From Escherichia coli (GTDB taxonomy: Bacteria > Pseudomonadota > Gammaproteobacteria > Enterobacterales > Enterobacteriaceae), in NCBI RefSeq assembly GCF_044324785.1, contig NZ_CP172127.1: a stretch of DNA of 64,000 bases; one strand, given 5' to 3'. The translations under genes and the position numbers were made by a program. Numbering within the stretch: the stretch's first letter is position 1; every line of letters starts with the position of its first letter. The notes beneath the pieces are model-generated. The model did not search any database, was not told where the DNA came from, and was given only the letters and a program-made list of their open reading frames with translations. Positions 28,801 to 30,459 of this stretch are shown in pieces.

Positions 28801-30459
28801 GCAATCGTCTACGCAGGTACGCTGGCGGATGCATCGGTCAGTGGCGCGACAGGAAGCCTGTCGTTAATGACGCCACGGGATAATATTACGCCAGTTAAAC
28901 TTGAAGGGGTGGTCCGGATTACCGATAGCGCGACATTAACTATCGGAAATGGCGTCGATACGACGCTTGCCGACCTGACGGCTGCCAGCCGGGGCAGTGT
29001 CTGGCTTAACAGCAATAATTCCTGTGCAGGCACCAGCAACTGCGAATATAGAGTAAACAGTTTGCTCCTCAACGACGGTGATGTTTATTTATCAGCACAA
29101 ACAGCAGCGCCTGCCACAACTAACGGTATCTACAATACGCTGACCACCAGTGAACTTTCCGGCAGCGGTAATTTCTACCTGCATACCAACGTTGCAGGCT
29201 CCCGGGGCGATCAACTGGTCGTCAACAACAACGCCACTGGCAATTTTAAAATCTTTGTTCAGGATACCGGCGTCAGCCCTCAGTCTGACGACGCGATGAC
29301 GCTGGTGAAAACAGGGGGAGGGGATGCTTCGTTTACGCTGGGTAATACTGGCGGTTTCGTTGATCTTGGGACCTATGAGTATGTCCTGAAAAGCGATGGT
29401 AACAGCAACTGGAACCTGACCAATGATGTCAAACCCAACCCGGACCCCAACCCAAATCCGAAGCCGGATCCAAAACCAGACCCAAAACCGGATCCGAAAC
29501 CAGACCCGACTCCCGATCCAACGCCGACACCCGTCCCGGAGAAACGCATCACGCCTTCTACGGCAGCCGTACTCAATATGGCAGCAACATTACCGTTGGT
29601 CTTTGATGCTGAGCTAAACAGTATTCGCGAGCGGTTGAACATAATGAAAGCGAGTCCACACAACAATAATGTCTGGGGGACGACGTATAACACCCGTAAT
29701 AATGTCACCACCGATGCGGGTGCCGGGTTTGAGCAGACGCTGACCGGAATGACGGTGGGGATCGATAGCCGTAATGATATTCCTGAGGGGATTGCGACGC
29801 TGGGCGCTTTTATGGGTTATTCCCATTCACATATCGGTTTTGATCGTGGAGGGCATGGCAGTGTGGGCAGTTATTCTCTGGGGGGCTATGCCAGCTGGGA
29901 ACATGAAAGTGGTTTCTATCTGGACGGTATCGTGAAGCTGAACCGCTTTGAAAGTAACGTAGCCGGTAAAATGAGCAGCGGTGGAGCCGCCAACGGCAGT
30001 TATCGCAGCAACGGGCTGGGCGGTCACATTGAAACCGGGATGCGATTTACCGATGGTAACTGGAACCTGACGCCGTATGCATCGTTAACGGGGTTCACCG
30101 CTGATAACCCCGAATATCATTTATCCAATGGCATGGAATCGAAATCAGTCGATACTCGCAGTATATATCGCGAACTGGGCGCAACGCTGAGTTACAACAT
30201 GCGTCTGGGGAACGGTATGGAAATTGAGCCGTGGCTGAAGGCGGCTGTGCGCAAAGAATTTGTCGATGATAACCGGGTGAAGGTGAATAATGACGGTAAT
30301 TTTGTCAATGATTTGTCGGGCAGACGTGGAATATACCAGGCAGGTATTAAAGCCTCATTCAGCAGTTCGTTAAGCGGGCATCTCGGGGTGGGGTATAGCC
30401 ATGGTGCCGGTGTGGAATCCCCGTGGAATGCGGTAGCTGGTGTGAACTGGTCGTTCTGA
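25882..30459 (+). CDS. ypjA: Large autotransporter (type Va) adhesin-like protein, YpjA-like
   Basis: ORF 25762..30459; likely start at MKFMNRTSPYYFRRSVLSLLISALIYAPPGMAA (signal peptide; alternative ATG 9 nt downstream); repetitive Gly/Thr/Asn-rich passenger; C-terminal beta-barrel ending …VAGVNWSF. Confidence 0.88.
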   Translation: MKFMNRTSPYYFRRSVLSLLISALIYAPPGMAAFTSNVIGVVNDETVDGVQKVDERGTTNNTHIINHGRQEVHGGISNSSIIETGGEQLVSIHADINGQANNTTINGGRQSIEYGGISTGTIIESGNQYVYKGGTSNGTMIKAGSSLVEGGTANGTIIDGGSQRVTTQGHVDGTTINKSGYQDITQGSLATNTTINGGRQYVEQSTVETTTIKNGGEQRVYESHALDTTIEGGTQSLDSKSTAKNTQIYSGGTQIVDYTSTSDVIEIYSGGVLDVRGGMATNVTQHDGAALKVTTYDLTVSGTNSEGTFSIHNNVADNVLLENGGHLDVYGSATRTIIKDKGTMSVLTNAKADATRIDNGGVMDVAGNATNTIINGGTQNINNHGIATGTNINSGTQNIKSGGKADTTIISSGSRQVVEKDGTAIGSNISAGGSLIVYTGGIAHGVNQETGSALVANTGAGTDIEGYNKLSHFTITGGEANYVVLENTGELTVVAKTSAKNTTVDAGGKLIVQKEAKTDTTRLNNGGILEVQDGGEAKHVEQQSGGALIASTTSGTLIEGTNSYGNAFYIRNSEAKNVVLENAGSLTVVTGSRAVDTIINANGKMDVYGKDVGTVLNSAGTQTIYTSATSDKANIKGGKQTVYGLATEANIESGEQIVDGGSTDKTHINGGTQTVQNYGKAINTDIVSGLQQIMANGTAEGSIINGGSQVVNEGGLAENSVLNDGGTLDVREKGSATGIQQSSQGALVATTRATRVTGTRADGIAFSIEQDAANNILLANGGVLTVESDTTSAKTQVNAGGREIVKTKATATGTMLTGGEQIVEGMANETTINDGGIQTVSANGEAVKTTINEGGTLTVNDNGKATDIIQNSGAALQTSTANGIEISGTHQYGTFSIAGNLATNVLLENGGNLLVLAGTEARDSTVGNGGAMQNLGQDFATKVNSGGQYTLGRSKDEFQALARAEDLQIAGGTAIVYAGTLADASVSGATGSLSLMTPRDNITPVKLEGVVRITDSATLTIGNGVDTTLADLTAASRGSVWLNSNNSCAGTSNCEYRVNSLLLNDGDVYLSAQTAAPATTNGIYNTLTTSELSGSGNFYLHTNVAGSRGDQLVVNNNATGNFKIFVQDTGVSPQSDDAMTLVKTGGGDASFTLGNTGGFVDLGTYEYVLKSDGNSNWNLTNDVKPNPDPNPNPKPDPKPDPKPDPKPDPTPDPTPTPVPEKRITPSTAAVLNMAATLPLVFDAELNSIRERLNIMKASPHNNNVWGTTYNTRNNVTTDAGAGFEQTLTGMTVGIDSRNDIPEGIATLGAFMGYSHSHIGFDRGGHGSVGSYSLGGYASWEHESGFYLDGIVKLNRFESNVAGKMSSGGAANGSYRSNGLGGHIETGMRFTDGNWNLTPYASLTGFTADNPEYHLSNGMESKSVDTRSIYRELGATLSYNMRLGNGMEIEPWLKAAVRKEFVDDNRVKVNNDGNFVNDLSGRRGIYQAGIKASFSSSLSGHLGVGYSHGAGVESPWNAVAGVNWSF
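29431..29540 (+). repeat. In-frame tandem repeat encoding a Pro-rich linker (PNPDPNPNPKPDPKPDPKPDPKPDPTPDPTPTPVP) inside ypjA
   Basis: Reiterated ccgaaaccagacccaaaaccggatccg units just upstream of the autotransporter translocator domain. Confidence 0.8.

What the first reader, a model, noticed from the sequence alone, without database searches (positions are those of the whole stretch)
29431..29540. In-frame tandem repeat encoding a PNPDPKPDPKP linker in the autotransporter
Near-perfect short DNA repeats (ccgaaaccagacccaaaaccggatccg …) encode a Pro/Asp/Lys/Asn-rich spacer between the passenger and the beta-barrel translocator. Such repeats are prone to slipped-strand length variation. The passenger itself is built from many similar roughly 20-residue Gly/Thr/Asn-rich modules, offering recombination substrates.
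Basis: seen in the sequence. Interest (0 to 1): 0.3.

Follow-up and report, generated by a model that had tools for sequence, protein, structure and literature searches.

The report
Proline-rich spacer in YpjA autotransporter
The repeat is real: it encodes a short, floppy, proline-rich spacer in the known E. coli surface adhesin YpjA/EhaD, and its length drifts a little between strains. This is an ordinary feature of this protein class, not a genetic switch.

Summary
Window 29425-29538 encodes DV + 18 consecutive X-Pro dipeptides, including (KPDP)x4. It lies in a 1522-aa autotransporter (25891-30459) that is ypjA/ehaD of E. coli.

The segment sits between the pertactin-like autochaperone domain and the pore helix plus 12-strand barrel. 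AlphaFold leaves it unstructured.

The DNA repeat is imperfect (76-82% matches). Most of its signal comes from having Pro at every second codon.

Length does vary. Among 2,524 complete E. coli genomes carrying the gene, three alleles dominate: about 52% at 120 nt, 30% at 114 nt (the window's) and 15% at 126 nt. Rare alleles of 78, 96 and 108 nt also exist.

On a K-12-type flank with no differences over 960 nt, four linker lengths occur. Three of those four alleles are related by simple deletions between short direct repeats, which fits replication slippage.

All changes are multiples of 6 nt. Lab-derived and lab-evolved lines sampled in these searches (many K-12-derived) and the sampled O157 genomes are each invariant, so this is slow in-frame length polymorphism, not phase variation.

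The passenger's 19-residue modules are real but too diverged at the DNA level to be good recombination substrates.

Related barrels carry 0 to about 100 aa of Pro-rich spacer at the same site. A ypjA-like gene beside minE carries (NP)32-33.

Verdict: known and ordinary.

The parts
25891..30459 (+). ypjA/ehaD coding sequence (1522 aa), a classical type Va autotransporter adhesin. The ATG at 25882 is an alternative start.
   Evidence: ORF. AGAGG at 25877-25881 lies 9 nt before ATG 25891, and this matches the MNRTS start used in RefSeq annotation of strain N3. Megablast gives 94.8-99.6% identity to annotated ypjA in 2524 of 5426 genomes.
25891..25980 (+). Probable extended signal peptide (MNRTSPYYFRRSVLSLLISALIYAPPGMAA).
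   Evidence: Read by eye from the translation. No signal-peptide predictor was run.
25981..29052 (+). Passenger built of AIDA-type ~19-residue strand-loop-strand modules (beta-helix).
   Evidence: Pfam PF16168 AIDA, 10 stretches, E=1.4e-141. NCBIfam TIGR04415, 9 stretches. DNA-level similarity between modules is only 66-78%.
29053..29421 (+). Pertactin-like junction / autochaperone domain, the last folded part of the passenger.
   Evidence: Pfam PF03212, E=5.2e-45. Aligns to pertactin 1dab residues 429-534. Beta strands up to construct residue 143 in the AlphaFold model.
29425..29538 (+). The finding: a proline-rich spacer of DV + 18 X-Pro dipeptides (KP NP DP NP NP [KP DP]x4 TP DP TP TP VP).
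   Evidence: AlphaFold pLDDT <50 and no secondary structure for 29434-29538. Length-polymorphic between strains.
29452..29521 (+). Core of the DNA tandem repeat (period 12 and period 24 arrays).
   Evidence: TRF scores 60 and 81. Shuffle controls.
29554..29646 (+). Alpha-helical linker predicted to plug the barrel pore (PSTAAVLNMAATLPLVFDAELNSIRERLNIM).
   Evidence: Helix 188-218 of the AlphaFold model. Its start (RITPSTAAVLNMAA) is nearly invariant across homologues.
29668..30453 (+). 12-strand outer-membrane beta-barrel (translocator).
   Evidence: Pfam PF03797, E=5.9e-46. TIGR01414. BrkA barrel 3qq2 and Vag8 7akv alignments. AlphaFold strands 226-487.

Best explanation
The segment is the proline-rich spacer of the known E. 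coli autotransporter adhesin YpjA/EhaD.

Shown:
- It is an uninterrupted run of 18 X-Pro dipeptides.
- It lies between the pertactin-like autochaperone domain and the pore-plugging helix of the barrel.
- It is predicted to have no folded structure.
- Homologous barrels carry anything from 0 to about 100 residues of differently composed Pro-rich sequence at exactly this site.

Inferred: Pro at every second position prevents helix or sheet. The alternating Lys/Asp charges keep the chain soluble and extended, in a polyproline-II-like form. At about 0.31 nm per residue, 36 residues reach at most about 11 nm. On this reading the segment acts as a stand-off tether that holds the base of the beta-helical adhesin away from the barrel mouth and the LPS core. 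It would also supply slack for the hairpin that starts passenger export.

Shown for the DNA: because the peptide is periodic, the DNA carries short imperfect direct repeats of 6, 12 and 24 nt. In-frame indels occur between them.

Inferred: these indels arise by replication slippage. The result is a slow, lineage-stable length polymorphism of 26-42 aa in ypjA, with no on/off switching.
For: Identity and architecture:
- Pfam and NCBIfam domains.
- Annotated ypjA orthologues with shared ssrA-side synteny.
- PDB alignments to pertactin, BrkA and Vag8.
- AlphaFold model with mean pLDDT 83. The spacer is the only long low-confidence, structure-free stretch, followed by helix 188-218 and a 12-strand barrel.

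Spacer character: between the conserved GTYEYxL...W.L and RITPSTAAVLNMAA motifs, homologues carry no spacer (YejO, P0115), 21-36 aa (E. albertii), or 20 to about 100 aa of EP/TP/QP-rich sequence in Citrobacter, Salmonella, Klebsiella, Leminorella and Erwinia.

Polymorphism:
- Linker lengths of 78, 96, 108, 114, 120 and 126 nt occur in ypjA.
- Estimated frequencies are about 52% (120 nt), 30% (114 nt) and 15% (126 nt), from evenly spaced samples.

Slippage signature:
- K-12-type flanks with 0 differences in 960 nt carry linkers of 120, 114, 108 and 78 nt.
- The 114- and 78-nt alleles, and the 96-nt allele, are exact deletions between direct repeats such as CCAGACCC.
- In the ypjA-like gene beside minE, a purer (AACCCAAATCCG)n/(AATCCA)n tract differs by -12 and +18 nt between porcine strains with identical flanks.

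Precedent: TibA is described as having a proline-rich domain between the junction region and the membrane domain (PMC3835316).
Against: - The stand-off and polyproline-II function is inferred from composition and position only. Nothing here measures conformation, surface exposure or phenotype.
- Related autotransporters that lack the spacer (the YejO type) show it is not required by the fold family.
- The DNA repeat score is reached in 12% of shuffles that preserve Pro at alternate codons. There is therefore no strong sign of recent unit duplication in this particular allele.
- The VR50 allele (NPNPNP insert containing an AAC codon) is not a simple slippage product of the K-12 allele.
- Allele frequencies come from 60-row samples and identity bands, not from a full census.
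Confidence: 0.8

Rival explanations
1. The length differences arise mainly by recombination or gene conversion, not by slippage within a lineage. The donors would be other ypjA alleles or the ypjA-like paralogue beside minE, whose linker is (NP)n.
For: - A second gene with a C-terminal ~800 aa about 97% identical to YpjA exists beside minE, and it carries an NP-only linker.
- Remnants of its barrel end occur in 5326 of 5426 genomes.
- The unique VR50 allele has an NPNPNP block whose AAC codon is not explained by simple duplication.
- The three major alleles go with distinct flanking haplotypes, with 24-40 differences per 960 nt.
Against: - Three of the rare alleles are exact deletions between direct repeats. 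Two of them, and VR50, sit on flanks with no differences from K-12 over 960 nt, so no imported tract is visible.
- The paralogue's own tract changes by whole 6- and 12-nt units between strains with identical flanks.
Confidence: 0.15
2. The repeat is a contingency locus: slippage switches YpjA expression on and off (phase variation).
For: - One short-read-assembled contig protein (P0109) is frameshifted inside the linker.
- ypjA is annotated as frameshifted or truncated in some genomes.
Against: - Repeat units are 6, 12 and 24 nt, so slippage preserves the frame.
- All 11 sequenced ypjA linker alleles are multiples of 6 nt.
- The tract is impure (76-82%), with a longest exact repeat of 11 nt.
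- The frameshifts in strain N3 lie in G7 and G5 runs elsewhere in the gene. LF3-1's 1-nt loss is outside the linker.
- The lab-derived and lab-evolved lines sampled (many K-12-derived) are all identical.
Confidence: 0.03
3. The segment is more than a passive spacer. It would be an exposed charged epitope or ligand-binding motif under diversifying (immune or phage) selection, as proposed for the repeat regions of pertactin.
For: - The segment is surface-proximal and charged.
- The composition of X differs between lineages and genera (K/D/N here; E/T/Q/V elsewhere).
- Pertactin polymorphism is concentrated in its repeat regions (PMC1459169).
Against: - The three common alleles differ by only 2-4 residues and are stable within lineages.
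- Conservation is of pattern (alternate Pro), not of any motif.
- Paralogues lack the segment altogether.
- No test of selection was possible with these data.
Confidence: 0.1
4. Nothing special happens at the DNA level. The 'tandem repeat' is only a by-product of coding (X-Pro)n, and the locus is no more mutable than any other low-complexity coding stretch.
For: - Shuffles that preserve Pro at alternate codons reach the observed TRF score in 24 of 200 trials.
- Synonymous positions are scrambled between neighbouring KPDP units.
- Variation on one haplotype is rare: 32 records in the 95-99% identity band against 1282 at >=99%.
Against: - Four linker lengths occur on flanks with no substitutions in 960 nt, so indels here outpace point substitutions nearby.
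- The breakpoints fall at direct repeats.
Confidence: 0.1

Closest known systems
YpjA (b2647) / EhaD of E. coli K-12 and O157:H7
   Same: Same gene. The finding region (510 nt) is 94.8-99.6% identical to annotated ypjA, and the whole gene is up to 99.0% identical. Domain order and position beside ssrA are the same. The gene is reviewed as a biofilm-associated AIDA/Ag43-group autotransporter (PMC9289746).
   Different: This allele has a 38-aa linker, against 40 aa in K-12 and 42 aa in O157-type strains. The exact protein is not in the 15-billion-sequence collection. Here ypjA abuts ssrA directly.
TibA proline-rich domain (residues 627-677)
   Same: A Pro-rich segment inserted between the junction (autochaperone) region and the membrane-embedded domain of a self-associating, AIDA-type E. 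coli autotransporter (PMC3835316).
   Different: The sequence and length differ. Whether TibA's domain is length-polymorphic was not examined here.
Pertactin repeat regions (GGXXP)n and (PQP)n of Bordetella
   Same: Short Pro-containing in-frame repeats in an autotransporter passenger whose copy number varies between isolates (PMC1459169). YpjA's domain just upstream of the linker aligns to pertactin residues 429-534. From my own knowledge, the PQP region follows that domain, so it is the positional analogue.
   Different: Different repeat motif. Pertactin variation has been linked to vaccine-driven selection, and nothing comparable is known or shown for YpjA.
TonB proline-rich (Glu-Pro)n(Lys-Pro)n spacer
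   Same: Alternating X-Pro with charged X. From established knowledge it forms an extended, rod-like span. A weak compositional hit to a TonB model covers the linker (E=9e-4, 19 bits against a cutoff of 315).
   Different: No homology, since the hit is far below the cutoff. TonB spans the periplasm, whereas this spacer is on the cell-surface side of the barrel.
Periscope proteins (length-variable repeat stalks)
   Same: The concept of changing the reach of a surface adhesin through repeat-number variation (PMC9704523).
   Different: That class is defined by highly identical tandem repeats of foldable domains that vary by homologous recombination. Here the variable part is an unstructured dipeptide run, and the passenger's folded repeats are not highly identical at the DNA level.

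Membership tests
Classical (type Va) autotransporter, AIDA-I/Ag43-type adhesin; orthologue of YpjA/EhaD | C-terminal 12-strand beta-barrel preceded by a pore-spanning alpha-helix | tested here: met
   PF03797 E=5.9e-46 and TIGR01414 E=3e-97. BrkA 3qq2 and Vag8 7akv alignments. AlphaFold helix 188-218 plus 12 long strands.
Classical (type Va) autotransporter, AIDA-I/Ag43-type adhesin; orthologue of YpjA/EhaD | Beta-helical passenger of AIDA-type ~19-residue repeats, with a pertactin-like autochaperone at its C-terminal end | tested here: met
   PF16168 x10 and PF03212. TIGR04415 x9. Pertactin 1dab 429-534 alignment.
Classical (type Va) autotransporter, AIDA-I/Ag43-type adhesin; orthologue of YpjA/EhaD | N-terminal Sec signal peptide | not tested
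   Only read by eye: MNRTSPYYFRRSVLSLLISALIYAPPGMAA. No predictor was available.
Classical (type Va) autotransporter, AIDA-I/Ag43-type adhesin; orthologue of YpjA/EhaD | Orthology: high identity over the full length, and the same chromosomal neighbourhood as annotated ypjA | tested here: met
   99.0% identity over 5.3 kb to strain N3, with the same order ypjCB - recombinase remnant - ypjA - ssrA - smpB. 2431 genomes cover at least 80% of the gene region.
Variable-number tandem repeat evolving by replication slippage | Head-to-tail DNA repeats detectable above chance | tested here: met
   TRF scores 60 and 81. 0 of 60 window shuffles and 0 of 200 codon shuffles reach 81, but 24 of 200 Pro-position-preserving shuffles do. 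Repeats are imperfect (76-82%).
Variable-number tandem repeat evolving by replication slippage | Length differs between strains in whole repeat units | tested here: met
   78, 96, 108, 114, 120 and 126 nt in ypjA, all multiples of 6. 234 and 240 nt in the minE-side paralogue.
Variable-number tandem repeat evolving by replication slippage | Changes arise on otherwise identical backgrounds, with breakpoints in direct repeats | tested here: met
   Four lengths on K-12-type flanks with 0 of 960 differences. The deletions are bounded by CCAGACCC-type repeats.
Variable-number tandem repeat evolving by replication slippage | Length heterogeneity within a clonal population | not testable with these tools
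   No read data. Indirectly, the lab-derived and lab-evolved lines sampled (many K-12-derived) all keep the same span.
Phase-variable contingency locus (on/off by repeat slippage) | Repeat unit not divisible by 3 (or located in a promoter), so that slippage shifts the frame | tested here: not met
   Units are 6, 12 and 24 nt inside the coding sequence. Every allele is in frame.
Phase-variable contingency locus (on/off by repeat slippage) | Long, pure repeat tract | tested here: not met
   76-82% matches. Longest exact repeat is 11 nt.
Periscope proteins | Highly identical tandem repeats of foldable domains forming a rod whose repeat number varies | tested here: not met
   The variable part has no predicted structure. 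The passenger modules are 66-78% identical at the DNA level, and passenger length is essentially constant among orthologues.
Proline-rich inter-domain spacer of autotransporters (TibA type) | Pro-rich, structure-free segment located between the junction/autochaperone region and the membrane domain | tested here: met
   Position. 19 Pro in 38 residues. TibA description in PMC3835316. The same site is occupied by Pro-rich segments in 13 of the 16 distinct homologue types inspected.

The most novel reading that the evidence does not exclude
Linker length may be tuned rather than neutral. The narrow, lineage-specific lengths in ypjA (38, 40 or 42 aa in about 97% of genomes) would then reflect selection to match the height of the adhesin's base to the thickness of each lineage's LPS or capsule layer. 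So would the 78-80-aa (NP)n expansion in the minE-side paralogue of porcine O139-type strains. On this reading the spacer is a small-scale 'periscope' for a classical autotransporter.
Probability: 0.08. Interest if true: 0.35.

Novelty: already known. Interest (0 to 1): 0.12.

Why it matters
It matters little for discovery. The gene, its domain plan and this type of spacer are all described.

There are three practical points:
- The ypjA linker is a small in-frame length marker, with three common alleles and a handful of rare ones. It could serve in strain typing, and it will cause spurious 'variant' or misassembly calls in short-read data.
- Annotation pipelines give the name ypjA to a distinct paralogue beside minE. 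Allele comparisons must therefore check the locus.
- For groups using YpjA-type barrels for surface display, natural variation (0 to about 100 aa at this site across the family) indicates that spacer length is freely adjustable.

Tried and rejected
- **The 78-aa (NP)32 linker of strain ETEC4079.** It first looked like an extreme ypjA allele. This was rejected: that gene lies beside minE/ymgJIGD, is 1144 aa long, and is a paralogue that RefSeq also names ypjA.
- **The shorter ETEC4079 gene as evidence for recombination between passenger modules.** Rejected for the same reason. Direct search for DNA repeats in the passenger found only 66-78% identical families.
- **The frameshifted ypjA of the closest genome (N3).** I suspected this reflected linker slippage. 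The two 1-nt gaps are in G runs at 26328 and 29314 instead.
- **Pfam Trypan_PARP and NCBIfam TonB hits on the linker.** These score 30.8 bits against a cutoff of 100, and 19 bits against a cutoff of 315. Both are compositional and were dismissed.
- **Exact-sequence look-ups of the protein.** Both starts found nothing. One search failed because of a wrong reading frame.
- **Literature searches.** They found no paper dealing with the YpjA linker or its polymorphism. A 'find' in PMC2631898 returned nothing.
- **Broad protein search.** It returned mostly fragments and paralogues rather than full-length YpjA clusters. It was used only for the cross-family comparison of the linker site.
- **Fold search.** Not run, because the sequence-level PDB hits and the AlphaFold topology already fixed the architecture.
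Full report
**What is there.**
Window 29425-29538 reads, in the frame of a long + strand ORF, DVKPNPDPNPNPKPDPKPDPKPDPKPDPTPDPTPTPVP. That is 18 consecutive X-Pro dipeptides, with (KPDP)x4 at the centre. Its quoted DNA string matches with one mismatch, and its quoted peptide is approximate.

Tandem Repeats Finder reports a period-12 array at 29452-29509 (4.8 copies, 76% matches, score 60). It also reports a period-24 array at 29464-29521 (2.4 copies, 82%, score 81). These are the top arrays in the 64-kb window.

Score 81 was not reached in 60 dinucleotide shuffles of the window (maximum 62), nor in 200 codon-order shuffles of the linker. It was reached in 24 of 200 shuffles that only keep Pro at alternate codons. 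The repeat is therefore real, but at the DNA level it is imperfect: the longest exact repeat is 11 nt. Most of its signal follows from the dipeptide periodicity.

**The host gene.**
The ORF is a classical autotransporter. Pfam finds AIDA repeats (10 stretches, E=1.4e-141), a Pertactin domain (nt 29053-29421) and the Autotransporter barrel. NCBIfam agrees.

Megablast against 5,426 complete E. coli genomes identifies it as ypjA, 'adhesin-like autotransporter YpjA/EhaD'. The gene is present in 2,524 genomes. The best whole-gene match is 99.0% (strain N3), with the same neighbours: ypjCB, a recombinase remnant, ypjA, ssrA and smpB.

The likely start is ATG 25891. AGAGG lies 9 nt upstream, and this is the same MNRTS start as in RefSeq. 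That gives 1522 aa. YpjA is reviewed as a biofilm-associated member of the AIDA-I/Ag43/TibA group (PMC9289746).

**Where the spacer sits.**
In PDB searches the region just upstream aligns with the C-terminal part of the pertactin passenger (1dab 429-534). The region downstream aligns with the BrkA barrel (3qq2) and Vag8 (7akv).

An AlphaFold model of the last 488 residues (21-sequence alignment, mean pLDDT 83) gives the following:
- beta structure up to construct residue 143;
- a stretch with pLDDT <50 and no secondary structure at 148-182 (nt 29434-29538);
- a helix at 188-218 (nt 29554-29646);
- a 12-strand barrel (nt 29668-30453).

The repeat therefore encodes an unstructured tether between the autochaperone domain and the pore helix. 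[quoted passage not shown]

**The site across the family.**
Two motifs bracket the site in homologues: GTYEYxL...W.L upstream and RITPSTAAVLNMAA downstream. Between them homologues carry:
- nothing at all (YejO-type proteins, P0115);
- 21-36 aa of DP/KP/NP repeats (E. albertii orthologues, which themselves vary);
- 20 to about 100 aa of EP/TP/QP/VP-rich sequence (Citrobacter, Salmonella, Klebsiella, Leminorella, Erwinia).

The position and the alternate-Pro pattern are conserved. Sequence and length are not. That is the signature of a spacer with weak sequence constraint, and it shows the spacer is not obligatory for this barrel family.

**Does the length vary?**
Yes. Linker sequences extracted from fetched ypjA loci:

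| Length | Strain(s) |
|---|---|
| 78 nt | Z1323PEC0012 |
| 96 nt | 1604D011 |
| 108 nt | VR50 |
| 114 nt, window type | the window; identical in 2012C-4502 |
| 114 nt, second K-12-derived type | O68:H12 97.3; 027_SK3 |
| 120 nt | K-12 |
| 126 nt | O157-type AUSMDU00002545 |

All are multiples of 6 nt.

Evenly spaced samples of the ranked hits give about 52% at 120 nt, 30% at 114 nt and 15% at 126 nt, with about 3% other. With a 316-nt K-12 query, 1282 records are >=99% identical and only 32 fall in the 95-99% band, which is where a 6-12-nt indel on the same haplotype would land. The VR50 allele is unique among 2,525 records.

Lab-derived and lab-evolved lines sampled (many K-12-derived) all keep the 120-nt allele. 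All sampled O157/O145-type genomes keep 126 nt.

**Mechanism of change.**
Flanks of 480 nt on each side were compared. VR50, Z1323PEC0012 and O68:H12 97.3 have no differences from K-12 in 960 nt, yet carry linkers of 108, 78 and 114 nt against 120 nt. Indels here therefore outpace nearby substitutions.

The 114-, 96- and 78-nt alleles are exact deletions between short direct repeats, for example AAGCCAGACCC...AAACCAGACCC. This is the classic outcome of replication slippage. The slippage step itself is inferred, not observed. VR50 needs more than one event or a conversion patch.

**A paralogue supports tract-purity dependence.**
The 78-aa '(NP)32' linker of ETEC4079 is not in ypjA proper. That gene lies beside minE/ymgJIGD, is 1144 aa long, and is about 97% identical to YpjA over its last ~800 residues.

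ETEC4071 and O139:H1 P15-25 carry (NP)33 in the same gene. They differ from ETEC4079 by one 12-nt unit fewer and three 6-nt units more, with 0 of 560 flank differences.

**What it is not.**
It is not a phase-variation switch:
- the repeat units are divisible by 3;
- the tract is impure;
- all sequenced ypjA linker alleles are in frame;
- the frameshifts annotated in strain N3 map to G7 and G5 runs elsewhere in the gene.

One frameshift inside the linker was seen, but only in a single short-read-assembled contig protein (P0109).

The passenger is not a good recombination substrate either. Its modules are real at the protein level, but the best DNA repeat families are 66-78% identical over 27-50 nt. 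Full-length orthologues differ in length almost only through the linker (4539-4587 nt).

**How it most likely works (inference).**
Pro at alternate positions excludes helix and sheet and favours an extended polyproline-II-like chain. Alternating Lys and Asp make it a soluble polyampholyte. At about 0.31 nm per residue, the 36-residue run could span up to about 11 nm, comparable to the known extended Pro-rich spacer of TonB.

Sitting just outside the barrel mouth, it would hold the base of the beta-helix clear of the barrel loops and LPS core. It may also provide slack for the hairpin that initiates passenger export. None of this was measured here.

**Novelty and verdict.**
The gene, the architecture and this kind of spacer are already known. 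In-frame repeat polymorphism in autotransporter passengers is classically documented for pertactin (PMC1459169). I found no paper on the ypjA linker polymorphism itself, but it is an unsurprising instance of a known phenomenon.

Its interpretation is right in its core (spacer, and length variation consistent with slippage). It is overstated on repeat perfection, on mutability and on the passenger as a recombination substrate. Interest is low.

Noticed in passing
window 30460-30982: ypjA ends 160 nt from the tmRNA gene ssrA (30620-30982, minus strand), followed by smpB. No prophage lies between them. From my own knowledge, the CP4-57 prophage separates ssrA from ypjA in K-12. Many genomes share the prophage-free arrangement.
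   Followed up: partly
window 1-25000 and the ypjA protein: The best match of this 25-kb core region in 5,426 complete E. coli genomes is only 97.1-97.7% identical. The exact YpjA protein is absent from a 15-billion-sequence collection. The source may be a lineage poorly represented among complete genomes.
   Followed up: no
L013 531-3965; L014; L015 (strains ETEC4079, ETEC4071, O139:H1 P15-25): A second, shorter ypjA-like gene (1144-1146 aa) lies beside minE/ymgJIGD, and RefSeq also names it ypjA. Its linker is (NP)32-33, and it varies between near-identical porcine strains. The last ~345 nt of its barrel match in 5326 of 5426 genomes, apparently as remnants.
   Followed up: partly
window 26322-26328 and 29310-29314: G7 and G5 homopolymer runs lie inside ypjA. 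Strain N3 has one G fewer at each and is annotated as frameshifted. These could be real inactivating slippage or homopolymer sequencing errors.
   Followed up: partly
L008 (strain F765), corresponding to window ~29501: In strain F765 ypjA is truncated by an IS1203 (IS3-family) element. The remaining 3' part starts at the position corresponding to the middle of the proline-rich linker.
   Followed up: no
window 25743-25826: A small ORF lies just upstream of ypjA. It is 27 aa here and is annotated as a 39-aa hypothetical protein in strain N3. A near-identical small ORF also precedes the minE-side paralogue. It could be a conserved leader or regulatory element.
   Followed up: no
window 24917-24955: The only other tandem repeat scoring at least 50 in the window: period 15, 2.6 copies, score 57. 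It sits at the very 3' end of the ypjCB-like ORF 23505-24959.
   Followed up: no
window 22679-22754: ARAGORN calls this tRNA as tRNA-Met (CAT), but the corresponding gene in strain N3 is annotated tRNA-Ile. That fits an ileX/ileY-type tRNA whose CAT anticodon is modified to read AUA.
   Followed up: no
window 232-309, 48742-48867, 52173-52311, 55308-60309: Rfam hits at gathering score: naRNA4, the Phe leader, RyfD sRNA, and a complete rRNA operon (16S, tRNA-Glu, StyR-44, 23S, 5S).
   Followed up: no
proteins P0011, P0116, P0109: Database variants of YpjA-like proteins. Two have large internal deletions: P0011 lacks the autochaperone domain, and P0116 joins the passenger end to mid-barrel. P0109 is frameshifted inside the linker. 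All come from draft or short-read assemblies, so they may be artefacts.
   Followed up: no
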